DNA from: Gemmatimonadales bacterium
GTDB lineage: Bacteria > Gemmatimonadota > Gemmatimonadetes > Gemmatimonadales > GWC2-71-9
NCBI GenBank assembly: GCA_050733215.1
Contig: JBOHSN010000006.1
Coordinates: 4,708-68,707, forward strand
Direction: 5' to 3'
Length of the DNA: 64,000 bases
The position numbers were made by a program, and so were the translations under genes. The notes beneath the pieces were generated by a model, which was not told the DNA's origin, searched no databases, and saw only the letters and a program-made list of their open reading frames with translations. Positions 12,701 through 48,791 of this stretch are shown one piece after another (the first letter of the stretch is position 1; each line of letters opens with the position of its first letter).

Positions 12701-14137
12701 ATGGATCTCTTCCGGCGGAAGAGCGTCACCGATCTCCAGGCCGAAGCCACGAGCGAGGGTGGCCTCAAGCGCTCGCTGGGCGCGTTCAATCTGGTGATGC
12801 TGGGCATCGGCGCCATCATCGGCACCGGCATCTTCGTGCTGACCGGCACGGTGGCCGCGCAGAACGCCGGCCCGGCGGTGGTGCTGTCGTTCGTGCTGGC
12901 CGGACTGGCGTCGATCTTCGCCGCGCTTTGTTACGCCGAGTTCGCCTCCGTCGTGCCGATCGCCGGCAGCGCGTACACCTACGGCTACGCCACGCTCGGC
13001 GAGTTCTTCGCCTGGATCATCGGCTGGGATCTGATCCTCGAGTACGCGCTGGGCGCGGTGACCGTCGCCATCGGCTGGTCGGGATACGTCGTGTCGTTTC
13101 TCAGGGACTTCGGCATCGTCATCCCGCCCCAGCTGACCGCCGCGCGGGGGAGCGTGGTGACGCTCGCCGACGGGTCCACAGTCACGGCGCTGTTCAACCT
13201 GCCGGCCGTGCTCATCGTCGCGCTGGTGACGGCGCTGCTGGTCGTCGGCATCCGCGAATCGGCCAACGTCAATAACGTGATCGTGGTGATCAAGGTGACG
13301 GTGGTGCTGCTGTTCATCGGTCTGGCGGCGCCGCACATCGTCCCGGAGAACTGGGTGCCATTCATCCCGCCAAACACCGGCGTCCGGGAGCACTTCGGCT
13401 GGACCGGCGTCGTGGCGGGCGCCGGCGTCGTGTTCTTCGCTTATATCGGCTTCGACGCCGTGAGTACCGCGGCCCAGGAAGCGAAGAACCCCCAGCGCGA
13501 CATGCCGATCGGCATCATCGGGTCGCTGATCGTGTGCACGATCCTCTACATCGTCGTGTCGGGCATCGCGGCGGGCGTGGTGCCCTACCGGGAACTCGAC
13601 GTGCCCGATCCGATCGCGCTCGTCGCGGATCGCGCTGGGCTCGGCTGGTTCGCGACGCTGATCAAGGTCGGCGCGATCGCGGGCCTGAGCTCGGTGATCC
13701 TGGTGATGCTCCTCGGCCAGGCCCGCGTCTTCTACTCGATGTCGAACGACGGGCTGCTTCCGCCGTTCGTGAACAAGATCCACCCCCGCTTCCGCACGCC
13801 CTGGCTCACCCAGATCCTCACCGGGATTGCGGTGGTCATACCCGCCGCGCTGCTGACGGTCCGCGAGGCGGGCTCGCTGGTGTCCATCGGCACGCTGCTG
13901 GCATTCGTCATCGTTTCCATCGGCATCATCGCGCTGCGCATCCGTGAGCCCAACCTGCCGCGGCCGTTCAAGACGCCGGCCGTCTGGGTCGTCGCGCCGC
14001 TCGGAGCGCTGACCTCGTTCTACCTGATGTATTTCCTTCCGTGGCGAACCTGGGAGCGGCTGCTCATCTGGCTCGCGATCGGGCTGGTGATCTATTTCGC
14101 GTACGGCAGGACGCACTCGAAGCTGGCAAAGCGGTGA
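12701..14137 (+). CDS. APC-superfamily amino acid permease (cationic amino acid transporter-like)
   Basis: Starts at MDLFRRKSVTDLQAE, with a GAGGA SD at 12691. Contains the motif YAEFASVVPIAGSAYTY. The 38 codons of ORF 12587 upstream of this start are a translation of the repeat array. Confidence 0.9.
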   Translation: MDLFRRKSVTDLQAEATSEGGLKRSLGAFNLVMLGIGAIIGTGIFVLTGTVAAQNAGPAVVLSFVLAGLASIFAALCYAEFASVVPIAGSAYTYGYATLGEFFAWIIGWDLILEYALGAVTVAIGWSGYVVSFLRDFGIVIPPQLTAARGSVVTLADGSTVTALFNLPAVLIVALVTALLVVGIRESANVNNVIVVIKVTVVLLFIGLAAPHIVPENWVPFIPPNTGVREHFGWTGVVAGAGVVFFAYIGFDAVSTAAQEAKNPQRDMPIGIIGSLIVCTILYIVVSGIAAGVVPYRELDVPDPIALVADRAGLGWFATLIKVGAIAGLSSVILVMLLGQARVFYSMSNDGLLPPFVNKIHPRFRTPWLTQILTGIAVVIPAALLTVREAGSLVSIGTLLAFVIVSIGIIALRIREPNLPRPFKTPAVWVVAPLGALTSFYLMYFLPWRTWERLLIWLAIGLVIYFAYGRTHSKLAKR

Positions 14138-32456: not shown

Positions 32457-32581
32457 CGGGGTCTCACGGTCGGTGGATAGGGGCGTAATGCCGCTGCCTC
32501 CCGGCCGGTTCCGCCGTCCGAACGTCGCGGCCGGGGACGCGGGTCCCGGCACGGAGCCATGTTGTTGGTGGCGAGGCCGAA

Positions 32582-33166
32582 TCAGATGGCGGCGCGGAGT
32601 CCGAGGTCGCGGGCGGTGGCGGCGAGGCGCTTCCAGAGGAGCCTGCGCCCGCGGTGCAGCCGCGACCGCACCGTGCCCACCGGACACCCGATCGTCTCCG
32701 CGATCTGTTCGTAGGAGAGATCGTCCACGAAGTAGAGCACTGCGACCGTGCGGTACTCGAGGGGAAGCGACGCAAGCGCCGCCTGCACCGCCTGGAGGTC
32801 CATCGTGCCGAGGACGGCAGTGGCCGCGTCCGACCCGTCGGCGGCCCAGCGGGCGTCGGCCGCGGTGCGGTCCCCGCTCTCGCCGTCCTCCGCGACCAGC
32901 GGCACCGTGATTCCGCGCCGCCGCTCGGCGCGACAGCGGGTGAGAAACACGTTGACCACGATGCGCTGGAACCAGGCCCGGAAGTTGGTGCCCGGCTCGA
33001 AACTCTCGAAGCTGCGCCAGGCGAGCAGCGACGCCTCCTGCACGATGTCTTCCGCGTCCGCCGTGTTGCGCGCGAGGTGGTACGCCGCGCGGTATGCCGG
33101 CTCGAGCACCGGCTGGAGCAGCCGCTCGAAGGTGCTGGTTCGGGTTTCCTCAGCGGGGGGCGTCAT
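32582..33166 (-). CDS. ECF-type sigma-70 factor
   Basis: Last 194 aa of ORF 32582..33922. Region 2 DAEDIVQEASLLAWRSF...FRAWFQRIVVN and region 4 LPLEYRTVAVLYFVDDLSYEQIAETIGCPVGTVRSRLHRGR. The ATG at 33166 overlaps the STAS stop (ATGA). Confidence 0.85.
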   Translation of the reverse strand: MTPPAEETRTSTFERLLQPVLEPAYRAAYHLARNTADAEDIVQEASLLAWRSFESFEPGTNFRAWFQRIVVNVFLTRCRAERRRGITVPLVAEDGESGDRTAADARWAADGSDAATAVLGTMDLQAVQAALASLPLEYRTVAVLYFVDDLSYEQIAETIGCPVGTVRSRLHRGRRLLWKRLAATARDLGLRAAI

Positions 33167-33429
33167 GCGAGCTCCTTGCTCAGCAACTCCCGGATGAGCG
33201 GGGTGCAGTCCACGATCTCGATACGGTCCTGCGGCAGATGGCGAAGCAGCTCCAGCCCGGCGGCGTCCAGGTATACCACGTCGCGGAAGTCCAGTTGGAT
33301 CCGGGCGCCCTCGTCGAGCACCCGGCGCAGCTCCTGGCCCAGCACGGGCAGCGTGGTCTGGGTGATGACCCCCTCGACTTTGAGGCGGATCAGCTCGGGC
33401 TCGGTCGTGACGTTCGTGAGTCTCAGCAT
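33163..33429 (-). CDS. STAS-domain protein (anti-sigma-factor-antagonist fold) lacking the phosphorylatable serine
   Basis: 88 aa. LDFRDVVYLDAAGLELL aligns with the SpoIIAA/RsbV motif D(S/T)(S/T)GL, but with Ala-Ala. Confidence 0.7.
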   Translation of the reverse strand: MLRLTNVTTEPELIRLKVEGVITQTTLPVLGQELRRVLDEGARIQLDFRDVVYLDAAGLELLRHLPQDRIEIVDCTPLIRELLSKELA

Positions 33430-33459: not shown

Positions 33460-33475
33460 AGCACCCCGCGTGCCA
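33460..33475 (-). promoter_or_regulatory. Candidate sigma54 (-24/-12) promoter for the STAS-ECF sigma operon
   Basis: The minus strand reads TTGGCACGCGGGGTGCT, against the consensus YTGGCACGrNNNTTGCW. GG and GC have canonical spacing. The GC is 32 nt upstream of the ATG at 33429 and the site is about 150 nt downstream of the stop of a sigma54-activator gene. Confidence 0.55.
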
Positions 33476-33627
33476 AGCGGACGACCCGCCGGGTACAGCG
33501 TGACAACATGTTGAAGGGATTTGGCTTAGGTGACGTATCCGAGCGACGGCCGCTCGCCAAACGCACTCGGGGTCCCAAAAAGTTGGGAATCTCCCACGTC
33601 GATCTCCGGGGGAATTTGGGAGGCGAC

Positions 33628-36600
33628 CTAGCCCGGCCGACGGACGCCCAGCTTCTTCATTCGCGCTTCGAGGGTCGTGGGCTTGAGACCCAGAAGCACC
33701 GCTGCACCTCTGGGTCCGCTCACCCGCCACCCGGTCTGTTCCAGTACCTCCGCGATGTGTCTCCGCTCCATCTCCTCCAGGGTCGGCTGCCCGGCTCCCC
33801 GGCTGCTCGGAGCCGCTCCACTGTCGGAAGGCAGCAGCCCGTCCAGCTCCAGCGCGGAACCACGGCTCAGAATGACCGATCGCTCGATGACGTTGGCCAG
33901 CTCGCGGATGTTGCCGGGCCACGGGTAAGCGGTCAGCCCCTCAAGCACGCCCCGGGGCACCGCCTCGATGCGCTTTCCGAGCTTCGCGGCGTACTTGAGG
34001 ACGAAGTACCGGACCAGCTCCGCGATGTCTTCGGCCCGCTCCCGTAGCGCCGGGTTCCGGATGGGGAACACGTTGAGCCGGTAGAAGAGGTCGGCCCGGA
34101 AGCGGCCGTCGCGGACCCGTGCCTCGAGGTCGCGATGCGTTGCCGCGATCACCCGCACATCCACGTTGATCGGGCGAAGGCCGCCCACCCGCTCGATCTC
34201 ACCTTCCTGGAGGACCCGGAGCAGCTTCACCTGTGAGTCGAGCGGCAGATCCCCGATCTCGTCGAGAAAGAGCGTGCCCCCGTCGGCGACTTCGAACCGT
34301 CCGATTCGCCGGCTCACGGCTCCAGTGAAGGCGCCCTTCTCGTGGCCGAACAGCTCGCTCTCGACCAGCCCCGGGGAGATCGCGCCGCAATTGACCGTGA
34401 TGAGCGCGCGGTCGCGCCGGGGGCTCAGCTTGTGAATCGCCCGGGCGAGCAACTCCTTCCCGGTGCCGGTTTCCCCGGTGATCAGGACGGTGGTGTCGCC
34501 CGGCGCCACCTGCTCGACCTCCGTGAGCACCCGGCGAAGCGCCGGGCTTCGCCCGACGATCTCCTCGAATCCGTGCTCGGTCTCGATCTGCTCCTGGAGG
34601 TAGACGTTCTCGGTCTCCAGCCGGTCCTTGAGCCGCCGCACCTCGGCGAGCGCGGCCCGAAGCGACTCTTCCGCCCGCTTGCTGTCGTCGATGTCGGTTG
34701 CCACGCCGAACCAGCGGGTGGTCGCTTCCTCCGGGCTGCGCATCGGGATCGCGCGGGCGCGGAACCAGCGGTGCTGGCCGTCCGCCCTCCGAAGCCGATA
34801 CTCGGTCTCGAACGCCTCGCCGGTCCGCACCGATTGCTCCCAGGCCGCGGTCGTGCGCTCGCGGTCGCCGGTATGGACGGCGGCAAGCCAGCCCTGGCCG
34901 AGGCAGCGCGCGAGCGGGAGCCCCGTGTATTCCGAGAACCGGCGGCTCACGTAGTCGCATCCACCGTCGGTGCCGGCGGTGAACAGGACTTCGGGCACCG
35001 TCTCCGCCATGGTGCTGTAGCGAAGCTGGCTCTCGCGCAGCGCGTCGCCAGTGCGCTTGCGCTCCAACTCCGCGCCGGCGCGGGCGGCGAAGATACGCAG
35101 GATCGCGAGGTCGTCCGGGGTCGGTGTGATCGGGGCGGTGTGGAGCACCGCGAGATGGCCGAGCAGGTCGCCGGTGGCTCCGCGAAGGGGGATGCCCAGA
35201 TAACTCTCCGCACCGAGGGTCTGGAGCTCGGTATCGGCCGGGAAGAGCGCCTGGATGTCGCGGGTATGCAGGCACATGTCGCCCCCGAGCACCTGCTGGC
35301 AGGGTGTTCCACTGACCGCATACTCCACGTTCTCCGCGAAGTCCGACCCGCTCCAGAACGCGAGCGTGCGGACGCGGGTGCGCTCGGCGTCGGTGCATTC
35401 CGCCGCGAACGCGTAGCGGGCCTGGAGCGCGTCGGCCAGATGCTGGACCAGGGGGCGGAAGAAGTCACCCGCCGTCACGGCGGCCGTGCCCTCCGCCAAG
35501 GCCCGGAGCTTCGCCTCGGCGCGCGTACGCTCGGTCACTTCCTGGCGCGTCCGCTCGTACAGGCGCGCGTTTTCGATGGCGATGGCGGCCTGAGCGGAGA
35601 TCAGCTGCATCACCCGGACGCGCTCGGGAGTGAAGGCGTGTGGGGTGAGCCGGTTCTCGACGTAGAGCGTGCCGACGAGGGTGCCCTGATTGAGGACCGC
35701 GGTGCAGAGTACGGAGCGGGGCCGCTCGCGCACGATGTACGGATCCTCCGCGCAGCGCTCGTCCACCGGCGCGTCGGCCACCACGACGTTCTCGCGGGTC
35801 CGGCGCACGTAGTGGATCAGACTGACCGGCAGATCGACACTCTCGGCCAGCGGCACGGTCGGTCCGCCGAGCACCTCGATCCGATCGTGCGAGCCGGTGA
35901 CGCGCACGACGGGCCCGGCTTCCCCCTCGAGCACGAGGGAGCCCCGCTCGGCACCGGCGTTCTCGAGCGCGACGCGCATGAGTCGGTCCAGTAGCCGCTC
36001 GAGATCGATCTCCTGGCCGATCGCCTGGGCGGCCTTGATCGCGGCCGCTGCATCGATCGAAATGTCGAGCGTCTCGCTGGACACGAGCACCGACGAGCCG
36101 CTCGGCCGCGCAGATCCATCCGGGGCCAACCCCTGCCGCAGCAGTTCGGGATACCGGCGGTCCAGGTCCGCCACCTTGGCGGTTGCGCCCCACTGCGCGT
36201 ACCCGAAGCGGGCCTCGGCCAGGAACACCGCCGCGACCTTGGGCTGTCCGCGCTGGAGCCAGAACCGGCCGTACAGCTCGTTGATGAGCGCCCGGTGTCG
36301 AGGCGATTCCTGAGCGGCGACCGCCTCGAGGGCGGCGTCATATAGCGTGACCGCGTCCCCCGGTCGCTGCCGCACCCGCGCGATCTCCGCCGAAGCGAGG
36401 AGGTGGAGATGCCCGAAGTTCTCGGGAGCGCTCTCCGCCCAGCGGGCGAGCCGCGCCTCGAGCCGATCAAGCTTGGTCTCCGCGGGCGGCCGCTCGCCGG
36501 CCGGGGCGTCCGGCAGCCAAGCGCAGATGGCGAGCACGTGGCGGAAGGTGAACATCGCGGGCCAGATCGAGCCGACGAACACGTCGGCGGCCGCCTCTTC

Positions 36601-39600
36601 GGTCGCTGCGTAGCGCCGAGCCGCCTCGACCTGCCCGAAGGTGTGGAGGAGCTCGAGCTTCACCGTGGCATGCAGGGCGCGGAAGATACCGCTGCCCCCG
36701 AGCAGCTTGAGGTAACGCTCCTCGTCGAAATCCGAGCCCGACAGACTGATCGGCGTCTCTGTGCGGCCACGCAGCGCCTCGCTCCACTGCAGCATGACGC
36801 GCTGCATCTCGACGTAGGTGTGGAGCTGTAGCCGGGCGAGCAGGTCCGCCGTGGGTCCGTGACGATCGGCGAACGTCTCGAGGTCGCGCTCGATCTGCAT
36901 CCCGTACCACGCCTGCTGGAACTGTGCGTAGCCCGCCACCGCGAGGTTCCCGGACTCGAAAGCCGCGCGGACCGCCTCCCGGGCGTGGACGATGCAGTTC
37001 GCGAACGGCTGCCGCCACGCATTGACCAACGCCGCAAACCGGTGATGCACGATCGCGCGAAGTCGCAGATCCGCGAAGCGCTCATTGACCGCCAGCGCGA
37101 GCTCGCCGAACTCCGCGCCACGCTCGTACTCGCCGAACACGGAGCCCACGGTCATCGCGTGGTGCAGGAAGCCGAAGGCCGACGGCTCGCTGACGCCGTG
37201 CTCGAGCGACAGACGCACGAGGCGGGCTGCGACGAGGTCGCCGAGGCGGGTCTGTCCGCTGATGTACGCCGGCGCCCAAGCCGCCTGGAGCAGCCGCATC
37301 GCCTGACGCATGCCGGGATCCTGCACCGGCGGGAGCTCCACCAGGCTCGCGATGGGCCGCGTCCCGATCGCCCGCCGAATCGCATCGAGCTCGGCGGCGA
37401 GGTCCGGTTCCCAGGCAGCCGGATCGGCGCTCACGGCGACGTCGAGCCGGCGGAGCCCGTCGAGGCCGGCCGCAATCGCGTCCGCGTAGCGCGACATTGT
37501 CTCGTACTCGACCATCAGCAGGGCGTAGACGTCGGCGACATCGAGCGGTGACCGGCACCGTTCGAGCAGCGCGAGGAAGCTCCTTTCCGCCTCGTCCAGG
37601 CGGGCGCAGAGATACTCGGCTTCCGCCCGCTCGAGGTGCAGCGCGAAGGCGAGCTCGTAATGCTCGGACCAGGCGGTGTCGGGAAGCAGCTCCGTTCCGA
37701 CCGTGAAATGGCTCAGGGCGCTCGGGTACGCGGCCGATGCTTTGGCCTTGCGCCCGGCGTCAAGGTTCAGCTGGGCCAGACGCCGGCGCTCGCCGGCATC
37801 GGCGATGAGCGAACGACCGTAGTTCAGGTGGTTGGCCACCTCGAACAGGCTGTCCGCGCGGGCGTCGCCGCCGCGCTCGAGCAGCAACCGCCCGACGGTG
37901 AGATGCGCCTGCCGCCGGCCCTCCTCGGGAATCAGCGCGTACGCGGCCTGCTGCACCCGGTCGTGGAGGAAGCGGTAGCCGATCTCGGCGGGTTCGATGC
38001 CGGTGGAGAGGTCCGGCGCGAATCCGTACGACTTGTCCAGCGAAAGCACGAGTCCTTGCTCGACCGCCTCCCACAGATCCGCGGCGGCCTCGGCCGGCTC
38101 CGCCTGGCTGATGATGGCAAGCGTCCGGAGATCGAACCGGTCACCCACGCACGCCGCGAGGCGAAGCGCCCGCTGGGTGCGGGAACCGAGGCGGGAGATC
38201 TTGGCCGCCATCAACGCGAGGACGTTGTCGGCGAGCTCCACCCGAGCCGTCCGGTCCAGATCGACCCGCCATCCGCCCGTGGCCTCGTCGAACGTGATGA
38301 GCCCGTCGGCGTGGAGCGACTGTAGCAGCTGCTTGACGAAGAAAGGATTGCCGCCCGTCTTGGTGAGAACGAGGTCCGCGGCAGCGGATGCGTGTCCCGC
38401 GTCGGTCCGAAGCGCGTCCGCGACCAGCTCCCGCAGCTGGCCGGCGTCGAGCGGCGGGAGCGCGATCTCCTCGATCCGCACCCGCGCGGCGAGTTCGCCG
38501 ACGGTCAGCCGCAGGGGATGGGTGGGGGACACCTCGTTGTCACGATACGCGCCGATAACGAGGAGCCCACGGATGTCCGGGTCGGTCAGCAGGAAGGGCA
38601 GCAGGGCGAGCGTCGCCGCGTCCGCCCACTGGAGGTCGTCCAGGAACAGAACCAGGGGGTGGTCGGCACGAGCGAACGCGGCCACGAACTTCTGGAAGAC
38701 CAGATTGAACCGGTTCTGCGCCTCGGTCGGCCCGAGCACCGGGGCCGGGGGCTGGGGGCCGAGGATGCGCTCGAGCTCGGGGATGACGTCGATCACGACC
38801 TGGGCATTGGCGCCGAGCGCGGCGCCCAGCCGCGCCGCCCAGGTGCGGACCTCCTCGTCGCTTGCCGCGAGCGTCTGGCGCACCAGCGCCTGGAATGCCT
38901 GGGCGAGCGCCCGATAGGGAACGTCCCGCGCCAGCTGGTCGAACTTCCCCGCGATCAGGTGGGCCTGTCCCCGGGTCATCGACTTGTAGACCTCCTGGAT
39001 GAGCGAGGTCTTCCCGATGCCGGAGTAACCGGTCACCAGCACGAGCTCGGTCGCGCCGGCCGCGACCCGCTCAAATGCCGCCCGCACGGCGGCGCCTTCC
39101 GCGGCCCGCCCGTACAGCCGCTGAGGAACCACGAACCGGGTCGAGCTGTCCTCGGTGCCCAGCGGGTGCTCGCCCACCGTTCCCGATGCCTCCAGCTCGG
39201 CAGCGAACCGCGCCAGATCCGCGCGCAGCCCCTGCGCGCTCTGGTAACGCGCCTCGGGCATCTTCTCGAGCAGGCGCGTGACCGCCCGGCAGACGACCTC
39301 GGGCAGCTCGGGCCGCCGGAGCGCCGGCGAGTCCGGCAGCCGTGCGATATGGCCGTGGATCAGCTCCAGCGGATCCGACGAATCGAAGGGCAGCCGCCCG
39401 GTCAGCATCTCGTACAGGGTCACGCCCAGCGAGTACAGATCCGTGTGGTAATCCACATCCCGGTTCATCCGCCCGGTCTGTTCGGGCGACATGTAGGCGA
39501 TCGTGCCCTCGAGCAGATGCGGGTGGCTCGGCGGCTGCGGCTCGCTCGTCAGGCGGGAGGCGATGCCGAAGTCGGTCAGCGTGACGCGCGAGGTGGCGGC

Positions 39601-40008
39601 GTCAACCAGGATGTTGTTGGGATTGACGTCTTTGTGGATGATGCCGCGACGGTGGAGCTCGCCGAGGACGGTCGCGAGCTGCACGCCGATGCTCAGCACC
39701 TGGCGGAGGGGAAGCGGGCTGCTCGCGATCAGCGTCTTGAGCGGCACTCCGCCGGCGTCCTCGAGCACGAGGGCGACGCGGTCGCGATGCGTCACCAGCT
39801 CCAGCGGCCGGGCCACGCCGGCAATCGAGAGGGACGACAGGATCTGGTACTCACGCCGCAACGCGGTCAACTGCGCGGGCGCGGGAAACTCATCCGCCGG
39901 GGTCTTGATCACGGCCGGGAGGCCGTCGCGCCGGCGGGTTGCCCGGAAGACGACGCGGCGGCGACCCCGGTAGATCTCCTGCTGGATGTCGTAGCCGGGA
40001 ATGCTCAT
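33628..40008 (-). CDS. 2126-aa multidomain regulator: Ser/Thr protein kinase - AAA_16/STAND NTPase - helical repeats - GAF - GAF - PAS - sigma54-interaction AAA+ - Fis-type HTH
   Basis: Kinase aa 6-268 (39205-39993): PAVIK, IIHKDVNPNNIL, DFG, SPE. AAA_16 aa 296-500: GYSGIGKTS, LVLFLDDLQWAD. GAF about 1315-1485 and 1505-1650. PAS about 1660-1780. Sigma54 AAA+ aa 1814-2055 (33844-34569): GETGTGKE, GAFTGA, TLFLDEIG. HTH aa 2078-2120. Confidence 0.9.
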   Translation of the reverse strand: MSIPGYDIQQEIYRGRRRVVFRATRRRDGLPAVIKTPADEFPAPAQLTALRREYQILSSLSIAGVARPLELVTHRDRVALVLEDAGGVPLKTLIASSPLPLRQVLSIGVQLATVLGELHRRGIIHKDVNPNNILVDAATSRVTLTDFGIASRLTSEPQPPSHPHLLEGTIAYMSPEQTGRMNRDVDYHTDLYSLGVTLYEMLTGRLPFDSSDPLELIHGHIARLPDSPALRRPELPEVVCRAVTRLLEKMPEARYQSAQGLRADLARFAAELEASGTVGEHPLGTEDSSTRFVVPQRLYGRAAEGAAVRAAFERVAAGATELVLVTGYSGIGKTSLIQEVYKSMTRGQAHLIAGKFDQLARDVPYRALAQAFQALVRQTLAASDEEVRTWAARLGAALGANAQVVIDVIPELERILGPQPPAPVLGPTEAQNRFNLVFQKFVAAFARADHPLVLFLDDLQWADAATLALLPFLLTDPDIRGLLVIGAYRDNEVSPTHPLRLTVGELAARVRIEEIALPPLDAGQLRELVADALRTDAGHASAAADLVLTKTGGNPFFVKQLLQSLHADGLITFDEATGGWRVDLDRTARVELADNVLALMAAKISRLGSRTQRALRLAACVGDRFDLRTLAIISQAEPAEAAADLWEAVEQGLVLSLDKSYGFAPDLSTGIEPAEIGYRFLHDRVQQAAYALIPEEGRRQAHLTVGRLLLERGGDARADSLFEVANHLNYGRSLIADAGERRRLAQLNLDAGRKAKASAAYPSALSHFTVGTELLPDTAWSEHYELAFALHLERAEAEYLCARLDEAERSFLALLERCRSPLDVADVYALLMVEYETMSRYADAIAAGLDGLRRLDVAVSADPAAWEPDLAAELDAIRRAIGTRPIASLVELPPVQDPGMRQAMRLLQAAWAPAYISGQTRLGDLVAARLVRLSLEHGVSEPSAFGFLHHAMTVGSVFGEYERGAEFGELALAVNERFADLRLRAIVHHRFAALVNAWRQPFANCIVHAREAVRAAFESGNLAVAGYAQFQQAWYGMQIERDLETFADRHGPTADLLARLQLHTYVEMQRVMLQWSEALRGRTETPISLSGSDFDEERYLKLLGGSGIFRALHATVKLELLHTFGQVEAARRYAATEEAAADVFVGSIWPAMFTFRHVLAICAWLPDAPAGERPPAETKLDRLEARLARWAESAPENFGHLHLLASAEIARVRQRPGDAVTLYDAALEAVAAQESPRHRALINELYGRFWLQRGQPKVAAVFLAEARFGYAQWGATAKVADLDRRYPELLRQGLAPDGSARPSGSSVLVSSETLDISIDAAAAIKAAQAIGQEIDLERLLDRLMRVALENAGAERGSLVLEGEAGPVVRVTGSHDRIEVLGGPTVPLAESVDLPVSLIHYVRRTRENVVVADAPVDERCAEDPYIVRERPRSVLCTAVLNQGTLVGTLYVENRLTPHAFTPERVRVMQLISAQAAIAIENARLYERTRQEVTERTRAEAKLRALAEGTAAVTAGDFFRPLVQHLADALQARYAFAAECTDAERTRVRTLAFWSGSDFAENVEYAVSGTPCQQVLGGDMCLHTRDIQALFPADTELQTLGAESYLGIPLRGATGDLLGHLAVLHTAPITPTPDDLAILRIFAARAGAELERKRTGDALRESQLRYSTMAETVPEVLFTAGTDGGCDYVSRRFSEYTGLPLARCLGQGWLAAVHTGDRERTTAAWEQSVRTGEAFETEYRLRRADGQHRWFRARAIPMRSPEEATTRWFGVATDIDDSKRAEESLRAALAEVRRLKDRLETENVYLQEQIETEHGFEEIVGRSPALRRVLTEVEQVAPGDTTVLITGETGTGKELLARAIHKLSPRRDRALITVNCGAISPGLVESELFGHEKGAFTGAVSRRIGRFEVADGGTLFLDEIGDLPLDSQVKLLRVLQEGEIERVGGLRPINVDVRVIAATHRDLEARVRDGRFRADLFYRLNVFPIRNPALRERAEDIAELVRYFVLKYAAKLGKRIEAVPRGVLEGLTAYPWPGNIRELANVIERSVILSRGSALELDGLLPSDSGAAPSSRGAGQPTLEEMERRHIAEVLEQTGWRVSGPRGAAVLLGLKPTTLEARMKKLGVRRPG

Positions 40009-43730: not shown

Positions 43731-44780
43731 GTGATTGCCCCTTCCATCCGCGCGGCGGCCGGCACGCGGTGCCTGGTCGTGGACGACGACGCGCAGGTGC
43801 GCGGCGCGCTGGCCCGCGTCGTCGAGGCGCAGGGACTCGCCTGCGTGGAGGCCGCGTCCGGCGCCGAGGCGCTCGCGCTCCTGCGCGCCGGGGGCGAGAT
43901 CCCGGTCTGCATCTCGGACATCCACATGCCCGAGATGGATGGGGTAACGTTCCTCCGCGAAGCGCTGCGGCTCTATCCCGACATGGCCATCATCATGCTC
44001 ACCGGTGTGGCCGAAGTGAGCACGGCGGTGGAGTGCCTCCAGCTCGGCGCGCTCGATTACATCTCGAAGCCGATGCTGATCGACGAGGTGCGCGCCCGGT
44101 TGCAGAAGGCGATCGAGAAGCGGGATCTGATCCTGCAGAACCGATTCTACCAGCAGCATCTCGAGAGCCGCGTCCGCGAGCTCGACCGCCGCAACAAGCA
44201 GTCGCTCATCAACGGCGTGCAGATGCTGGTGCACGCGCTCGAAGCCAAGGACGCGTACACCAGCGGGCACTCCGCCCGGGTCAGCCGGTACGCGGTACGG
44301 ACCGCGGTGCAGCTTGGCTTCACCGGCGAGCGGCTGGAGGAGATCCGGCTCGGCGGCGAGCTGCACGACATCGGGAAGATCGGCACCCGCGAAGCGATCC
44401 TGAACAAGCCGGGTCCGCTCTCGGGCGAGGAGTTCGAGCACATCAAGGTGCACACCACGCTGGGTGAGCGGATCCTGGCGCCGTTCCTGGGCGAGTCCCC
44501 CCCGGTGCTCCGCATCGTACGCTCGCATCACGAGCGGATCGACGGCACCGGCTTTCCCGACCGGCTCAGGGGCAGCGAGATCCCGATCGAGGCGCGCATC
44601 GTCGCCGTAGTGGACGCGTTCGACGCGATGACCACGAATCGGGCGTACCGGCCGTCCCGCACGCCGGTCGAGGCGGTGGTCGAGCTGCGTCGCTGCGCCC
44701 GGACCCACTTCGACGAATCGGTGGTGACGGCATTTCTCAGCGCGTATCCGGAACCCTCGCTGTTGCCGCTCCAGGTCTGA
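43731..44780 (+). CDS. Response regulator with an HD-GYP phosphodiesterase output domain
   Basis: REC: LVVDDD...ISDIHMPEMDG...SKP. HD-GYP: GHSARV...ELHDIGKIG...HHERIDGTGFP. GTG start. Confidence 0.85.
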   Translation: MIAPSIRAAAGTRCLVVDDDAQVRGALARVVEAQGLACVEAASGAEALALLRAGGEIPVCISDIHMPEMDGVTFLREALRLYPDMAIIMLTGVAEVSTAVECLQLGALDYISKPMLIDEVRARLQKAIEKRDLILQNRFYQQHLESRVRELDRRNKQSLINGVQMLVHALEAKDAYTSGHSARVSRYAVRTAVQLGFTGERLEEIRLGGELHDIGKIGTREAILNKPGPLSGEEFEHIKVHTTLGERILAPFLGESPPVLRIVRSHHERIDGTGFPDRLRGSEIPIEARIVAVVDAFDAMTTNRAYRPSRTPVEAVVELRRCARTHFDESVVTAFLSAYPEPSLLPLQV

Positions 44781-46194: not shown

Positions 46195-48024
46195 ATGTGT
46201 GGCATTGTCGGATACATCGGTCCGCGCCCCGCGGCCCACCTGCTCATCGACGGGCTCCGACGTCTCGAGTATCGCGGGTATGACTCCGCCGGAATCGCCG
46301 TGGTGAACGGCACCGGCCTCAAGATCCACAAGGCCGCCGGCAAGCTGTCCACGCTCGAGCAGCAGCTCGACGGCAATCTCCCTCTCGGCACGCTTGGCAT
46401 AGGGCATACGCGCTGGGCCACTCACGGTGCCCCCACCACGCCGAATGCGCATCCGCACACCGACCAGTCGGGCCGGATCGCCGTGATCCACAACGGGATC
46501 ATCGAGAATGCGTCCGCGATCCGGAAGGCGCTGGTCCAGCGGGGCCACACCTTCCGCTCGGAAACGGATACCGAGGTCCTCGCCCACCTGGTGGGCGAGT
46601 TCTACCGCGGCAACCTCGAGGAGGCGGTGGCGAACGCGCTCCGCGACGTCGAAGGGGCGTACGGCTTGGCGTTCATCTCGGCTGACGAGCCGAACGTGCT
46701 CGTGGCGGCGCGGAAGGGATCGCCGCTGCTCCTGGGGGTGGGGGAGAACGAGTGGTTCGTCGCGTCCGATGCCTCACCGCTGCTCCAGTACACCCGCTCG
46801 GTGATCTACCTCGACGACGGCGAGCTGGCGGTGCTGACCCGTGAGGGATACCGCGTGCGCACGCTGGACACCGCCCGGATCAGCAAGCCGATCGCCCAGA
46901 TCGACTGGGATCTGGCGACGATCGAGCGGGGCGGGTACCCGCACTTCATGCTGAAGGAGATCTTCGAGCAGCCGGAAAGCCTCCGCAACACGCTACGCGG
47001 CCACCTGCTGGAAGACGAGGGCACCGCGCGGGTCTCCGGCCTCAATCTGTCCGACGAGCAGCTCGCGAAAGTACAACGCATCGTCATCACGGCGTGCGGC
47101 ACCTCGTGGCACTCCGGGCTCATCGGCGAGTACATGCTCGAGGAGATGGCCCGGATCCCGGTGGAGGTCGAGTACGCGTCGGAGTTCCGCTACCGGAACC
47201 CGGTCGTGGACGAGCACACGCTGGTGATCGGCGTCTCGCAGTCGGGCGAGACCGCCGACACGCTGGCCGCCATCCGCGAGGCCAAGCAGCGTGGCGCGCG
47301 CACCATCGGCGTGGTGAACGTCGTCGGCTCGACCATCGCGCGCGAGGTGGATGGGGGCATCTACCTGCACGCCGGTCCGGAGGTGGGCGTCGCCAGCACC
47401 AAGGCGTTCACCAGCCAGGTCGCGGCGCTGTCGCTGGTCGCGTTGCGGATCGCGCGGCTCCGCAGCCTGAGCGTTCTTCACGGCCGGCAGATCATTCAGG
47501 CGCTCGACCGCCTGCCCGATCAGATGGCGGCGATTCTCCAGCGGTCGGAGGAGATCGAGCGGCTCGCCGAGCGCTTCCTGGCCACCACGCACAACGCGCT
47601 CTACCTGGGCCGGGGGGTCAATTTCCCGGTGGCGCTCGAGGGCGCGCTGAAGCTGAAGGAGATCTCCTACATCCACGCGGAGGGCTACCCCGCGGCGGAG
47701 ATGAAGCACGGTCCCATCGCCCTGATCGACGAGAACATGCCCGTGGTGTTCATCGCGCCCCGGGACGCGGTACACCCCAAGATCGTGTCGAACATCGAGG
47801 AGGTGAAGGCGCGCGGTGGCAAGGTTATTGCTCTCGTCAATGCCGGCGATGCGGAGATCGAGCGCTTGGCGGACGCGACCTTCGAAATTCCGGAGACGCT
47901 GGACCTCCTGACCCCGATTCTCACCAGTATCCCGCTGCAACTGCTGGCGTATTTTGTGGCGGTGCGGCGCGGATGCAACGTGGACCAGCCGCGAAATCTG
48001 GCCAAGTCGGTGACGGTGGAGTAG
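46195..48024 (+). CDS. glmS: Glutamine--fructose-6-phosphate aminotransferase
   Basis: MCGIVGY N-terminal nucleophile, two SIS domains and the C-terminal ...NLAKSVTVE. Confidence 0.95.
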   Translation: MCGIVGYIGPRPAAHLLIDGLRRLEYRGYDSAGIAVVNGTGLKIHKAAGKLSTLEQQLDGNLPLGTLGIGHTRWATHGAPTTPNAHPHTDQSGRIAVIHNGIIENASAIRKALVQRGHTFRSETDTEVLAHLVGEFYRGNLEEAVANALRDVEGAYGLAFISADEPNVLVAARKGSPLLLGVGENEWFVASDASPLLQYTRSVIYLDDGELAVLTREGYRVRTLDTARISKPIAQIDWDLATIERGGYPHFMLKEIFEQPESLRNTLRGHLLEDEGTARVSGLNLSDEQLAKVQRIVITACGTSWHSGLIGEYMLEEMARIPVEVEYASEFRYRNPVVDEHTLVIGVSQSGETADTLAAIREAKQRGARTIGVVNVVGSTIAREVDGGIYLHAGPEVGVASTKAFTSQVAALSLVALRIARLRSLSVLHGRQIIQALDRLPDQMAAILQRSEEIERLAERFLATTHNALYLGRGVNFPVALEGALKLKEISYIHAEGYPAAEMKHGPIALIDENMPVVFIAPRDAVHPKIVSNIEEVKARGGKVIALVNAGDAEIERLADATFEIPETLDLLTPILTSIPLQLLAYFVAVRRGCNVDQPRNLAKSVTVE

Positions 48025-48121: not shown

Positions 48122-48508
48122 TCAGGGCAGGAGTCGAAAGCCTGGGGTGTGCCGGGGGCGGAGCATGCCGAAGTGGCGGCGGTCCGTGGTCACGATGCTA
48201 TCGGTCTCGAGCCGTTCGGCCGTTGCCGCGACGCTTCCATCCACGAATCCGAGCGGCGCGTCTGCGTAGGCCTGCATGAGCTCGGCAGCACGCCGGGCAT
48301 CCTCGTCCAGCAGCGGCTCGACGGCAAACTCGGCCGCCACGACGGCATCCACGAACGCCAGCTCGGCGCGCGGCCCGATGCGACGAGCCAACAGGTAGCA
48401 GACTTCCGGGACGACGCAAACCGGCAGCAGCACATCGGCTCCGCTCCGCTCCCACCAGTCGCGCACCCGGAGGTGCCAGGCGTCGTCGCGGTCGATCAGG
48501 GCGTACAC
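48122..48508 (-). CDS. vapC: PIN-domain ribonuclease toxin (VapC-like); the real start is probably upstream (CTG 48535)
   Basis: PIN acidic residues are present at PEVCY, FVDGS and TTDRRHF. The first conserved Asp (VVADTGAVYAL) lies upstream of the ORF-track GTG start. Confidence 0.7.
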   Translation of the reverse strand: MYALIDRDDAWHLRVRDWWERSGADVLLPVCVVPEVCYLLARRIGPRAELAFVDAVVAAEFAVEPLLDEDARRAAELMQAYADAPLGFVDGSVAATAERLETDSIVTTDRRHFGMLRPRHTPGFRLLP

Positions 48509-48531
48509 CGCGCCGGTGTCGGCGACGACCG

Positions 48532-48765
48532 TCAGGGGTGGGGCTCCGACCAGAGCAGCTCGTCCACCCGCTCCGACGTGTCCGCCCGGCCGCTCGCGAA
48601 GCGGCCGGTGAGCGCCGGCAGCGCGGTCCTGGAGGGACGCGGGGCGGCGATGTAGGCAGCGAGCGCCTCACGGACCACGGCGGCGAAGCTCAAGCCGTGC
48701 CGGCGTGCGAAGCCGCGGGCCCGGCGCAGGAGGGGGTCGTCAAGGAACACAGTGGTCCGGCGCAT
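48532..48765 (-). CDS. vapB: Ribbon-helix-helix antitoxin (VapB-like)
   Basis: MRRTTVFLDDPLLRRARGFARRHGLSFAAVVREALAAY is an RHH pattern. It lies directly upstream of the PIN gene. The ATG at 48765 is preferred over the TTG at 48801. Confidence 0.65.
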   Translation of the reverse strand: MRRTTVFLDDPLLRRARGFARRHGLSFAAVVREALAAYIAAPRPSRTALPALTGRFASGRADTSERVDELLWSEPHP

Positions 48766-48791
48766 GACATACATATTACATATGGTATATG
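48766..48791 (-). promoter_or_regulatory. AT-rich promoter/operator candidate of vapBC
   Basis: The minus strand reads GCATATACCATATGTAATATGTATGTC-ATG, an AT island in a 70% GC context with reiterated CATATR motifs. TAATAT sits 7 nt before the ATG. Confidence 0.35.

What the first reader, a model, noticed from the sequence alone, without database searches (positions are those of the whole stretch)
33628..40008. Single 2126-aa polypeptide fusing a Ser/Thr kinase, a STAND/AAA_16 NTPase, two GAF domains, a PAS domain and a complete sigma54 enhancer-binding module
Seen in the sequence: kinase motifs PAVIK (aa 31-35), IIHKDVNPNNIL (123-134), DFG (146-148) and SPE (174-176); P-loop GYSGIGKTS (327-335) and LVLFLDDLQWAD (452-463); about 800 aa of helical repeats; GAF, GAF and PAS; then a sigma54 AAA+ core (aa 1814-2055) with GETGTGKE, an intact GAFTGA loop and TLFLDEIG, followed by a Fis-type HTH. 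Established knowledge: kinase-AAA_16-GAF proteins normally end in histidine-kinase outputs, and bacterial enhancer-binding proteins normally carry REC, GAF, PAS or V4R inputs. Inference: three ATP-using switches sit in one chain, so kinase or STAND state could gate hexamerisation of the sigma54 activator directly, without a two-component partner. The glycine-rich loop is degenerate (YRGRRRVVF), so the kinase may act as a pseudokinase scaffold.
Basis: partly seen in the sequence, partly recalled or inferred. Interest (0 to 1): 0.8.

Follow-up and report, generated by a model that had tools for sequence, protein, structure and literature searches.

The report
Kinase-STAND sigma54 activator driving ECF sigma
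This 2126-residue protein is a real, recurrent but unstudied type of sigma54 transcription activator: its sensory half is the kinase-like/STAND/GAF cassette otherwise found on histidine kinases, and it most likely switches on the small STAS-like gene and ECF sigma factor gene lying just downstream.

Summary
An uninterrupted 2126-aa ORF on the minus strand (33628-40008) carries Pkinase, AAA_16, two GAF, PAS, Sigma54_activat, AAA lid and HTH_8. Every motif sits at the stated residue.

It is not an assembly chimera. More than 200 distinct 90%-identity clusters share the collinear architecture. They come from independent assemblies of Gemmatimonadota, Acidobacteriota, Nitrospirota, KSB1, Methylomirabilis and others. 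All are MAG or metagenome proteins with generic or wrong names. I found no paper describing the fusion.

The first ~1480 aa are the cassette of cyanobacterial "dual kinases" and fungal group X histidine kinases. Here the output is a FhlA-like sigma54 module.

New finding: 13 of 14 homologous loci have an ECF sigma gene downstream on the same strand, usually after an 88-98 aa STAS-like gene. In the window this operon follows the best non-coding sigma54 -24/-12 match in 64 kb (TGGCACGCGGGGTGCT). A palindrome unique in the window (TTCCCA-N6-TGGGA) lies about 105 bp upstream of it.

The glycine-rich loop is degenerate family-wide. The catalytic Asp is kept here but lost in an acidobacterial clade, and the kinase domain is missing in some relatives. 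Phosphotransfer is therefore not the conserved function.

Verdict: a new variant of a known kind, moderately interesting.

The parts
33628..40008 (-). Gene for the 2126-aa kinase-like / STAND / GAF-GAF-PAS / sigma54 enhancer-binding protein
   Evidence: The ORF is uninterrupted. Domains come from Pfam and NCBIfam. An identical protein is in NCBI from a Gemmatimonadales MAG.
39232..39993 (-). Hanks-type protein-kinase-like domain (aa 6-259). It is non-RD (HKD), has a degenerate Gly-rich loop, and keeps K35, E53, D127, N132 and D146.
   Evidence: Pkinase 3e-34. The closest solved relatives are PknB and PknA. Motif conservation was scored across 119 homologues.
38554..39120 (-). STAND nucleotide-binding domain (AAA_16, aa 297-485) with Walker A GYSGIGKT and Walker B LVLFLDD
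   Evidence: AAA_16 1e-43. Walker A is present in 119/119 homologues. The best PDB match of the AF2 model is the STAND-TPR protein 6mfv.
36049..38553 (-). Winged-helix plus long all-helical, TPR-like sensor arm of the STAND module (aa 486-1320)
   Evidence: No Pfam hit. The AF2 model has pLDDT mostly above 90 and is all-helical. Foldseek hits are 6mfv, TPR and superhelical proteins.
35575..36006 (-). GAF domain 1 (aa 1335-1478), the last domain of the shared input cassette
   Evidence: Pfam GAF. It sits at the same position in the cyanobacterial HisKA relatives.
35065..35466 (-). GAF domain 2 (aa ~1515-1648)
   Evidence: Pfam GAF 2.5e-10 on the isolated segment. It is absent from the ~1820-aa subfamily.
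34678..35022 (-). PAS domain (aa 1663-1777)
   Evidence: PAS_3 2e-18, plus PAS_4 and PAS.
34561..34677 (-). Helical linker with the ENVYLQEQI motif, joining the sensory domains to the AAA+ core
   Evidence: The NCBIfam FhlA model aligns from here to the C-terminus. The linker is conserved in the family alignment.
33823..34560 (-). Sigma54-interaction AAA+ core plus lid (aa 1817-2062) with GETGTGKE, GAFTGA and TLFLDEIG
   Evidence: Sigma54_activat 1e-75 and AAA_lid_14 4e-21. GAFTGA is present in 118/119 homologues.
33649..33783 (-). Fis-type HTH_8 DNA-binding domain (aa 2076-2120)
   Evidence: HTH_8 1e-7. Variation in the recognition helix tracks the motif class in part.
33572..33589 (.). Candidate enhancer (UAS): palindrome TTCCCAACTTTTTGGGA, with further TCCCA/TGGGA half-sites up to 33621
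   Evidence: It is the only occurrence in 64 kb. Inverted repeats I2, I13 and I14 support it. Equivalent palindromes sit at the same place in L002, L003, L082, L083, L084 and L086.
33460..33475 (-). Sigma54-type -24/-12 promoter TGGCACGCGGGGTGCT, 31 nt upstream of the STAS-like ATG
   Evidence: It is the top-scoring GG-N10-GC site of the window; the only equal hit lies inside the glmS coding sequence. It is conserved in 10 homologous loci, and in 7 of them it is stronger than in at least 98% of same-size windows.
33163..33429 (-). 88-aa truncated STAS-like protein, first gene of the putative target operon
   Evidence: STAS_2 31.4 bits against a cut-off of 29.2. It is conserved downstream in 11 of 14 loci. 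The canonical phospho-Ser is not conserved.
32582..33166 (-). ECF-type sigma-70 factor (194 aa); its start overlaps the STAS-like stop
   Evidence: Sigma70_r2 and r4_2. The TIGR02937 ECF superfamily model scores above its cut-off. The DAED motif is present. It shares 40-87% identity with ECFs of loci from other Gemmatimonadota and from Acidobacteria.
32485..32512 (-). ECF-type promoter-like motif GGAACC-N16-CATTAC upstream of the SDR / DUF1622 / alginate-export-porin genes; possible output of the cascade
   Evidence: Single match in the window. It is conserved in L082 and L083. The assignment to this sigma factor is inference.

Best explanation
The gene encodes a cytoplasmic, single-chain (one-component) sigma54 enhancer-binding protein.

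Its C-terminal third is an ordinary FhlA/NifA-like activator: helical linker, AAA+ core with an intact GAFTGA loop, and a Fis-type HTH. I infer that the HTH binds the TTCCCA-N6-TGGGA palindrome just past the gene's own stop codon. From there the AAA+ ring would use ATP to open the sigma54 promoter about 105 bp further on. That promoter would transcribe the adjacent operon for a truncated STAS-like protein and an ECF sigma factor. The ECF sigma factor in turn probably drives the GGAAC-type promoter in front of the next genes (SDR, DUF1622, alginate-export-type porin).

The N-terminal two-thirds are a pre-assembled sensory cassette: kinase-like domain, STAND NTPase with a long helical arm, and GAF. 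The same cassette is wired to histidine-kinase, GGDEF, SpoIIE or other outputs in other lineages. A second GAF and a PAS domain follow it here. Most likely the STAND module, through nucleotide exchange and ligand-dependent opening or oligomerisation, together with the GAF/PAS ligand state, holds the AAA+ domain off until a signal arrives. It then permits hexamer assembly.

The kinase-like domain most likely acts as a nucleotide-binding or regulatory element rather than as an obligatory phosphotransferase.

Shown: the domains, the motifs, recurrence of the family, and the conserved downstream promoter, palindrome and STAS/ECF genes. Inferred: DNA binding at the palindrome, control of the operon by this protein, gating by the STAND/GAF/PAS domains, and the ECF regulon.
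For: Domain identity and intact catalytic motifs of the sigma54 module come. STAND identity comes from the profile, Walker motifs in 119/119 homologues, and a pLDDT 86.9 model whose best PDB match is the STAND-TPR protein 6mfv.

Cassette modularity: aa 1-1500 align at 36-39% identity to cyanobacterial proteins that end in HisKA/HATPase, and to relatives that end in GGDEF, AAA_35 or SpoIIE.

Target assignment. The strongest non-coding -24/-12 match of the window lies 31 nt before the STAS-like ATG. An ECF sigma gene lies downstream on the same strand in 13 of 14 loci, spanning 42-90% identity and several phyla. Ten of the loci have a GG-N10-GC site in that short spacer, and in seven of them it beats at least 98% of same-size windows. 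Each locus has palindromes directly after the activator's stop codon. The palindrome class changes together with the HTH recognition helix in the most divergent clade. The window palindrome is unique in 64 kb.

Precedent for a sigma54-to-ECF cascade: hrpL transcription depends on sigma54 and HrpRS (PMC5263251).

Kinase catalysis is dispensable at family level. The catalytic Asp is replaced in a ~2015-aa acidobacterial clade that keeps the STAS/ECF neighbourhood. The kinase domain is partial or absent in some STAND-GAF-sigma54 relatives.
Against: No experiment exists for any member. rpoN is not in the window, so its presence in this genome is unverified. Binding of the HTH to the palindrome is inferred from position and conservation only.

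The TCCCA-type and TTTCGTGA-type motif classes accompany nearly identical recognition helices, so the covariation is imperfect. Three low-GC loci have GG-N10-GT instead of GC at -12. One locus (L006) has neither an ECF gene nor a promoter downstream.

This protein retains every catalytic kinase residue except the Gly-rich loop, so real kinase activity cannot be dismissed. How a STAND oligomer would be geometrically compatible with an AAA+ hexamer is unknown.
Confidence: 0.6

Rival explanations
1. The kinase domain is catalytically active and provides a second, post-translational arm. The same polypeptide transcribes the STAS-like/ECF operon and also phosphorylates the STAS-like protein, the ECF sigma factor or itself. 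This would form a feed-forward switch.
For: K35, E53, HKD-D127, N132, DFG and SPE are all present and conserved throughout the Gemmatimonadota clades. Several ECF groups are genomically linked to Ser/Thr kinases and lack anti-sigma factors (PMC7826278), and no anti-sigma gene is seen next to the ECF gene here. [quoted passage not shown]
Against: The Gly-rich loop lacks GxGxxG in all members. At the canonical STAS phospho-Ser position the homologues read A/G/G/R/S/H/Q/A. The ECF sigma factor carries the DAED motif; from my own knowledge of the ECF43 work (Iyer et al. 2020, not read here), phosphorylation-dependent ECFs lack it. An acidobacterial clade with the same STAS/ECF neighbourhood has lost the catalytic Asp. 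Some relatives lack the kinase domain.
Confidence: 0.2
2. The protein is a sigma54 activator, but the adjacent STAS-like/ECF operon is not its target. It acts at distant promoters, and the downstream -24/-12 site is served by another activator or is non-functional.
For: Enhancer-binding proteins can act at unlinked promoters. L005 carries a second GAF-PAS-sigma54 activator next to the ECF gene. L006 lacks the arrangement.
Against: Linkage is seen in 13 of 14 loci across phyla. The promoter and palindromes always occupy the spacer between the two genes. The palindrome and the strong non-coding -24/-12 site are each unique in the window.
Confidence: 0.12
3. The long ORF is an artefact: a chimeric assembly, or a frameshift-fused pair of genes.
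For: None beyond the unusual length.
Against: There is no internal stop. GC content is uniform across the gene. Full-length collinear homologues exist in more than 200 clusters from independent assemblies and sources, some on contigs above 1 Mb. Domain boundaries are conserved.
Confidence: 0.01
4. It is an anti-phage STAND (Avs-like) or kinase-based defence protein.
For: STAND NTPases and kinases occur in defence systems, and PADLOC gives domain-level hits.
Against: The PADLOC hits are generic: the RtcR AAA+ core and PD-T4-6 kinase domains. There is no effector domain, the neighbourhood is housekeeping genes plus a sigma factor operon, and there is an intact GAFTGA/HTH output.
Confidence: 0.02

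Closest known systems
GAF-regulated bacterial enhancer-binding proteins (FhlA, NifA, NorR type)
   Same: The helical linker, the sigma54 AAA+ core with GAFTGA, the lid and the Fis-type HTH are shared. FhlA is the best NCBIfam hit, aligned over model positions 349-687. GAF and PAS domains lie directly upstream of the AAA+ core. The target promoter is adjacent with an upstream palindrome.
   Different: About 1300 extra N-terminal residues (kinase-like domain plus STAND NTPase plus helical arm) precede the GAF domains. All equivalog scores fall far below their cut-offs, so it is not an orthologue of any named activator. Some database entries name relatives 'NorR' or 'NifA'; those names are unsupported.
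Cyanobacterial family III 'dual protein kinases' (HstK, Pkn40/Pkn41) and fungal group X hybrid histidine kinases
   Same: The same N-terminal cassette is present: Ser/Thr-kinase-like domain with a degenerate Gly loop, AAA_16 at about residues 297-485, a long helical arm, and GAF at about 1335-1480. Identity is 36-39% over 1500 residues (PMC2176072, PMC6324907).
   Different: Their output is HisKA/HATPase (with or without REC), acting through phosphorelay. Here the output is a DNA-binding sigma54 ATPase, so no partner response regulator is needed. A 2011 survey found no sigma54 or sigma54 activators in the 29 sequenced cyanobacterial strains it examined (PMC3162934).
STAND transcription activators of sigma70 promoters (MalT/LAL family, AfsR; M. 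tuberculosis PknK as a kinase-MalT-like fusion)
   Same: A P-loop STAND module with a helical repeat arm is fused to a transcription output. PknK-type proteins also carry an N-terminal Hanks kinase (PMC1262709 notes the M. tuberculosis kinase with a MalT-like C-terminal region). The MalT mechanism and AfsR are taken from my own knowledge.
   Different: Their output domain is a LuxR- or SARP-type HTH that recruits sigma70 RNA polymerase. Here it is a second, AAA+ ATPase that remodels sigma54 holoenzyme, and GAF/PAS domains sit between the two.
HrpR/HrpS -> hrpL cascade of Pseudomonas syringae
   Same: A sigma54 enhancer-binding protein activates transcription of an ECF sigma factor gene (PMC5263251).
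   Different: HrpR/S lack sensory domains (PMC3162934 lists HrpR among the type Ic activators without a separate signal-recognition domain). Here a very large sensory region is fused to the activator, and a STAS-like gene precedes the ECF gene. The ECF sigma factor here is nearest to SigH/SigE/SigW-type models, not to HrpL.

Membership tests
Bacterial enhancer-binding proteins (sigma54 activators) | Sigma54-interaction AAA+ domain above the curated profile threshold | tested here: met
   PF00158 scores 253 bits against a cut-off of 20.2, over aa 1817-1983.
Bacterial enhancer-binding proteins (sigma54 activators) | Intact GAFTGA loop plus Walker A and Walker B | tested here: met
   GAFTGA 1892-1897, GETGTGKE 1845-1852 and TLFLDEIG 1912-1919. 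GAFTGA is present in 118/119 homologues.
Bacterial enhancer-binding proteins (sigma54 activators) | C-terminal DNA-binding HTH and a nearby enhancer plus -24/-12 promoter | tested here: met
   HTH_8 at 2076-2120. Promoter at 33460-33475 and palindrome at 33572-33589, both conserved in homologous loci. Binding itself is not shown.
Bacterial enhancer-binding proteins (sigma54 activators) | Sigma54 (rpoN) encoded in the same genome | not testable with these tools
   There is no RpoN-box ORF in the 64-kb window, and the rest of the genome was not available.
Hanks-type Ser/Thr protein kinases | Protein-kinase fold profile, the VAIK Lys / alphaC Glu pair, catalytic-loop Asp and Asn, DFG and APE | tested here: met
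   Pkinase scores 118.9 bits against a cut-off of 31.7. K35, E53, H125-K126-D127, N132, D146-F-G and S174-P-E are present. PknB is the best PDB relative.
Hanks-type Ser/Thr protein kinases | Glycine-rich ATP-phosphate loop GxGxxG | tested here: not met
   The loop reads YRGRRRVVF at 13-21. No member of the family has the motif, and neither do the cyanobacterial relatives.
Hanks-type Ser/Thr protein kinases | Phosphotransfer activity | not testable with these tools
   This needs biochemistry. Loss of the catalytic Asp in one clade and loss of the domain in some relatives argue that activity is not universally required.
STAND NTPases (AAA_16 / MalT-like) | P-loop NTPase with Walker A and Walker B, followed by helical and winged-helix domains and a repeat arm | tested here: met
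   AAA_16 scores 149.9 bits. Walker A is present in 119/119 homologues. In the AF2 model of aa 280-1330 the best PDB match is 6mfv (a STAND protein with TPR, E 2.6e-10, 855 columns), followed by ORC/Cdc6 and CED-4.
STAND NTPases (AAA_16 / MalT-like) | Ligand-triggered nucleotide exchange and oligomerisation | not testable with these tools
   Needs biochemistry.
Dual Ser/Thr-histidine kinases (cbSTKIII / fungal group X HK) | N-terminal kinase-like domain plus GAF, with AAA_16 between them | tested here: met
   36-39% identity over aa 1-1500, with identical domain positions.
Dual Ser/Thr-histidine kinases (cbSTKIII / fungal group X HK) | C-terminal HisKA plus HATPase_c transmitter | tested here: not met
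   There is no HisKA or HATPase_c hit, and the C-terminus is Sigma54_activat plus HTH_8. It is therefore not a member, although it shares the input cassette.
Partner-switching anti-sigma antagonists (SpoIIAA/RsbV), for the downstream 88-aa protein | STAS fold | tested here: inconclusive
   STAS_2 scores 31.4 bits against a cut-off of 29.2 but covers only profile positions 1-51 of 80. TIGR00377 scores 17 bits against 53. It looks like a truncated STAS.
Partner-switching anti-sigma antagonists (SpoIIAA/RsbV), for the downstream 88-aa protein | Conserved phosphorylatable Ser (SpoIIAA S58) and a cognate HATPase-type anti-sigma kinase nearby | tested here: not met
   The position reads A in the window and G/G/R/S/H/Q/A in homologues. 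No SpoIIAB/RsbW-like gene is in any of the loci.
ECF sigma factors (downstream 194-aa protein) | Sigma70 regions 2 and 4 only, with the ECF superfamily profile | tested here: met
   Sigma70_r2 scores 56.5 bits and r4_2 scores 62.3 bits. TIGR02937 scores 87.8 bits against a cut-off of 42.9.
Kinase-activated ECF sigma factors (ECF43-like) | Absence of the acidic DAED motif in region 2.2 (feature recalled from Iyer et al. 2020, not read here) | tested here: not met
   The sequence reads NTADAEDIVQEA.

The most novel reading that the evidence does not exclude
A previously undescribed and widely distributed regulatory module exists in which a STAND NTPase (with an attached pseudokinase or atypical kinase) directly licenses assembly of a sigma54 AAA+ activator within one polypeptide. 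The activator is dedicated to transcribing a truncated-STAS/ECF sigma pair. This would be a new input class for enhancer-binding proteins. It would also be a new, transcription-level mode of ECF control shared by Gemmatimonadota, Acidobacteriota, Nitrospirota, KSB1 and Methylomirabilota. The STAS-like protein would act as a non-phosphorylatable partner of the sigma factor or of the activator.
Probability: 0.35. Interest if true: 0.7.

Novelty: new variant of a known kind. Interest (0 to 1): 0.55.

Why it matters
Enhancer-binding proteins are usually described with REC, GAF, PAS, V4R or PRD-type inputs, or with none. An input made of a STAND NTPase and a kinase-like domain would add a new control principle: one oligomerising ATPase gating another.

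The finding also shows that the little-understood kinase-STAND-GAF cassette of cyanobacterial and fungal histidine kinases is a portable sensor with exchangeable outputs. In the sigma54 version the readout is a single adjacent promoter. That makes the cassette's unknown signal much easier to assay genetically than through a phosphorelay.

The conserved link to an ECF sigma operon predicts a sigma54-to-ECF cascade in abundant but poorly studied soil phyla.

Practically, database names such as NorR or NifA for these proteins are misleading.

Tried and rejected
1. Ten full-text literature searches, plus targeted reading of kinase-architecture, sigma54-census and ECF-classification papers, found no description of a kinase/STAND-sigma54 fusion. 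Perez et al. 2008 (myxobacterial kinome) and Bush & Dixon 2012 are not held. An earlier mention there cannot be excluded.

2. Canonical partner switching (kinase phosphorylates STAS) is rejected as the conserved mechanism, because the phospho-Ser position is not conserved.

3. ECF43-like direct sigma phosphorylation is rejected, because DAED is present.

4. The second top-scoring -24/-12 hit at 47817 lies inside the glmS coding sequence and is treated as chance.

5. A defence-system reading is rejected.

6. The genome-contig scan used query-specific peptides. It returned only five Gemmatimonadota loci plus 75 relatives that match only the N-terminal cassette (~aa 1-1500 to 1-1820), nearly all cyanobacterial. 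This was useful for the cassette but not for a census of cultured hosts.

7. The 50%-identity representative search was limited to 1200 aa and has no annotation. It gave only a rough count: about 16 long (>=1700 aa) representatives among the best 150, out of 103,493 hits at E<=1e-30. Five were checked by Pfam.

8. Pfam found nothing in the helical arm.

9. My first guess of the L002 STAS reading frame was wrong and was corrected.

Full report
OBSERVATION

The ORF at 33628-40008 is real, but it lies on the minus strand. The plus-strand translation is full of stops. The minus strand gives an uninterrupted 2126-aa protein from ATG to TAG. GC content is a uniform ~70% across the gene and its surroundings.

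Pfam supports all domains above curated thresholds:
- Pkinase 6-259
- AAA_16 297-485
- GAF 1335-1478
- a second GAF at about 1515-1648
- PAS 1663-1777
- Sigma54_activat 1817-1983
- AAA_lid_14 1989-2062
- HTH_8 2076-2120

NCBIfam aligns the C-terminal ~340 residues best to FhlA, NifA and NorR. All scores are far below the equivalog cut-offs. The output is therefore a generic GAF-type sigma54 activator module and not an orthologue of a named regulator.

NOT A CHIMERA, AND NOT RARE

The identical protein is deposited from a Gemmatimonadales MAG as 'sigma 54-interacting transcriptional regulator'.

All 120 best hits of a search of 5.8 billion proteins carry Pkinase, AAA_16, GAF and Sigma54_activat, usually with HTH_8. 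Identities run from 90% down to 42%. Lengths fall into classes of about 2120 aa (two GAF plus PAS), about 2015 aa and about 1820 aa (one GAF, no PAS).

A second search seeded with the most distant hit added about 90 more fused clusters. The names given by sources cover Gemmatimonadota, Candidatus Eisenbacteria, Acidobacteriia, Blastocatellia, Pyrinomonadaceae, Nitrospirota, candidate division KSB1, Candidatus Methylomirabilis and a Cyclobacteriaceae MAG. All are MAG or metagenome proteins. Some are misnamed NorR or Nif-specific regulator.

Independent assemblies from NCBI, JGI, ENA and Logan, some on contigs above 1 Mb, rule out a mis-assembly.

In the 50%-identity library, about 16 long (>=1700 aa) representatives appear among the best 150 hits, out of 103,493 hits at E<=1e-30. 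The fusion is thus a small but well-established branch of activator diversity.

THE N-TERMINAL TWO-THIRDS ARE A KNOWN, PORTABLE SENSORY CASSETTE

A scan of one genome per species returned 75 loci, nearly all cyanobacterial (Nostoc, Microcoleus and others). They match residues 1 to about 1500 at 35-39% identity.

Their domain positions are almost superimposable on the query: AAA_16 at 297-485 and GAF at about 1335-1478. Their C-termini differ:
- HisKA/HATPase, with or without REC, in cyanobacteria
- GGDEF in a Smithella MAG
- AAA_35 in an actinobacterial MAG

HisKA- and SpoIIE-ended relatives also turned up at 47-60% identity to the distant fused member P0120 (the query), from KSB1, Chloroflexota, Myxococcales and Burkholderiales.

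These HisKA-ended proteins are the 'family III dual protein kinases' of cyanobacteria (HstK, Pkn40/41; PMC2176072). The cassette also corresponds to the Ser/Thr-kinase-related plus GAF N-terminus of fungal group X histidine kinases (PMC6324907). The Pfam model TPR_CHK1 hits several family members.

A 2011 survey found no sigma54 or sigma54 activators in the sequenced cyanobacteria it examined (PMC3162934). This fits the use of different outputs in different phyla.

One HisKA-REC sibling from KSB1 lies 2 kb from a REC-GAF-sigma54 activator. This hints that the fused form may be a collapsed two-component pathway. It is a single locus and therefore only an anecdote.

THE STAND MODULE

No Pfam family matches residues 480-1330. 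An AlphaFold2 model of residues 280-1330, built on 41 family sequences, is confident (mean pLDDT 86.9). It shows an alpha/beta nucleotide-binding domain followed by a long all-helical arm.

Its best PDB match is 6mfv, a STAND protein with tetratricopeptide repeats (E 2.6e-10 over 855 columns). ORC/Cdc6, CED-4 and a plant resistosome follow. The Walker A motif is present in 119 of 119 homologues.

THE KINASE-LIKE DOMAIN

Its closest solved relatives are PknB and PknA. Conservation across 119 homologues:
- K35: 118
- E53: 119
- H125: 117
- D146: 115
- SPE: essentially invariant
- the loop that should read GxGxxG is instead an Arg-rich YRGRRRVVY in all members
- the cyanobacterial relatives are similarly non-canonical at this loop

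The catalytic Asp (HKD, a non-RD kinase) is kept in 91 sequences, including all Gemmatimonadota. It is N, H, S or another residue in the ~2015-aa acidobacterial clade. That clade nevertheless keeps the same gene neighbourhood.

Among five long 50%-identity representatives, all have AAA_16, GAF and Sigma54_activat. The kinase domain is complete in one, weak or partial in two, and undetected in two.

So the conserved core is STAND-GAF-sigma54. The kinase-like domain is an accessory whose catalysis is not universally needed. The window protein itself could still be active.

The gene follows purD by 22 nt. After its stop codon comes a 198-nt spacer. Next comes an 88-aa gene with a STAS_2 hit. Its stop overlaps the start of a 194-aa ECF sigma factor gene.

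A weighted scan of the whole window for GG-N10-GC sites puts TGGCACGCGGGGTGCT (33475-33460, minus strand) at the top. It lies 31 nt before the STAS-like ATG. The only equal-scoring hit lies inside the glmS coding sequence.

About 105 bp upstream of the -24 element is the palindrome TTCCCAACTTTTTGGGA. It is the only match to TTCCCA-N6-TGGGA in 64 kb, and further TCCCA/TGGGA half-sites flank it.

I examined 14 loci encoding homologues with downstream sequence. They span 89% down to 42% identity and include Gemmatimonadota, Acidobacteria, Nitrospirota, KSB1 and unassigned lineages.
- 13 have an ECF-type sigma gene downstream on the same strand.
- 11 have a STAS-like small gene in front of it. In L089 this gene is uncalled.
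- Ten spacers contain a GG-N10-GC site, with consensus yTGGCAyG-N4-cTGCyTT, 31-68 nt before the next start codon (148 nt in L084).
- In seven loci the site is stronger than in at least 98% of same-size windows of the locus. In three more it falls in the top 8-9%.
- Three low-GC loci share TGGCAT-N6-xGT, that is GT instead of GC at -12.
- One locus (L006) lacks the arrangement.

Each spacer begins with palindromes. They are TCCCA-type in the window's clade, TTTCGTGA/CCACGAA-type in the 1820-aa and acidobacterial clades, and TGTCAAAATAnTGACA-type in the low-GC clade. That last clade also has a distinct HTH recognition helix (NRTTLL instead of KPTTLE).

The layout is the textbook one for an enhancer-binding protein and its adjacent target: enhancer, about 100 bp of spacer, -24/-12 promoter, then the gene.

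A sigma54-to-ECF cascade has a precedent in HrpRS and hrpL (PMC5263251).

WHAT THE TARGET GENES SAY ABOUT THE KINASE

In the STAS-like proteins the position of the SpoIIAA phospho-serine reads A/G/G/R/S/H/Q/A. No SpoIIAB-type kinase is nearby. Canonical partner switching is therefore unlikely.

The ECF sigma factor has the acidic DAED motif. It scores best against SigH, SigE and SigW-type models. By my own recollection of the ECF43 work, it does not resemble the phosphorylation-dependent ECFs.

ECF groups linked to Ser/Thr kinases are known (PMC7826278). The main text of that classification mentions neither sigma54 nor STAS, and its supplements were not available.

The ECF proteins of the Gemmatimonadota and acidobacterial loci are 40-87% identical to the window's. 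Those of L089 and L090 are only 22-25% identical.

Between the ECF stop codon and the next gene lies GGAACC-N16-CATTAC. It is conserved in two orthologous loci and unique in the window. It is a plausible ECF-dependent promoter for the SDR, DUF1622 and alginate-export-porin genes.

MECHANISM

The best-supported reading is a one-component sigma54 activator. Its AAA+ ring assembly is held in check by the GAF/PAS domains, as in NorR and NifA. It would also be held in check by a STAND switch whose nucleotide state and helical arm respond to an unknown ligand or partner.

On activation it would bind the palindrome and fire the STAS-like/ECF operon. The ECF sigma factor would then extend the response.

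Steps shown here:
- domain composition and intact motifs
- recurrence and modularity of the cassette
- conserved synteny, promoter and palindromes

Steps inferred:
- DNA binding at the palindrome
- dependence of the operon on this protein
- gating by the STAND, GAF and PAS domains
- the role of the STAS-like protein
- the ECF regulon

The signal is unknown. Fungal group X kinases are linked to oxidant adaptation (PMC6324907). Several loci carry redox or detoxification genes nearby, such as PMSR, glyoxalases and DoxX. This is only a hint.

NOVELTY AND VERDICT

All component domains and the input cassette are known, and the protein is already in public databases under a generic name. Within the searchable literature I found no description, and no functional work, of a STAND/kinase-like input on an enhancer-binding protein. 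The same holds for the conserved link to a STAS-like/ECF operon. Two relevant papers could not be read.

I classify it as a new variant of a known kind and of moderate interest. It is less exceptional than implied because the family is widespread.

Noticed in passing
window 32485-32512 (-): An ECF-type promoter-like motif, GGAACC-N16-CATTAC, lies between the ECF sigma stop codon and the SDR/DUF1622/alginate-export-porin genes. It is conserved as GGAAC-N17-C(A/G)TTA in L082 and L083 and is unique in the window.
   Followed up: partly
window 47817-47832 (+): A second top-scoring sigma54 -24/-12 match (TGGCAAGGTTATTGCT) lies inside the glmS coding sequence (...EEVKARGGKVIALV...). It is most likely a chance match.
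   Followed up: yes
L089 ~10640-10660, L090 ~13370-13390, L092 7750-7765: Three low-GC homologous loci (Nitrospirota, unassigned, KSB1) share TGGCAT-N6-xGT upstream of the STAS-like gene, that is GG-N10-GT instead of the canonical GC at -12. They also share TGTCAAAATAnTGACA palindromes. This may be a variant -12 element or a different promoter type.
   Followed up: partly
L091 13864-15864 (+): A KSB1 sibling whose cassette ends in HisKA-HATPase-REC has no ECF gene nearby. It lies 2 kb from a REC-GAF-sigma54 activator. This may be a two-component counterpart of the fused protein.
   Followed up: no
L005 7741-9987 (-): In a locus of the 1821-aa subfamily, a second and much shorter GAF-PAS-sigma54 activator (748 aa) is encoded convergently, right after the ECF sigma gene. 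That locus has no STAS-like gene.
   Followed up: no
proteins P0228, P0250, P0225, P0218: Some STAND-GAF-sigma54 relatives have a partial, weak or undetectable kinase domain, with AAA_16 starting at residue 84-199. This may be true domain loss or an N-terminally truncated gene call.
   Followed up: partly
L085 10655-12385 (+): In one Gemmatimonadota locus the downstream cluster is expanded: a sigma-like protein with region 4 only, a STAS-like protein, a full ECF sigma factor and a zf-HC2 anti-sigma factor.
   Followed up: no
window 48122-48774 (-): A small 80-aa gene is followed by a PIN-domain gene, a VapBC-like toxin-antitoxin pair. It lies between glmS and a glycosyltransferase gene.
   Followed up: no
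window 43731-44780 (+): A response regulator with an HD_5/HD (HD-GYP-like) output domain lies in the conserved neighbourhood upstream of the M48 peptidase-purD-activator block. The arrangement is syntenic in L082, L083 and L084.
   Followed up: no
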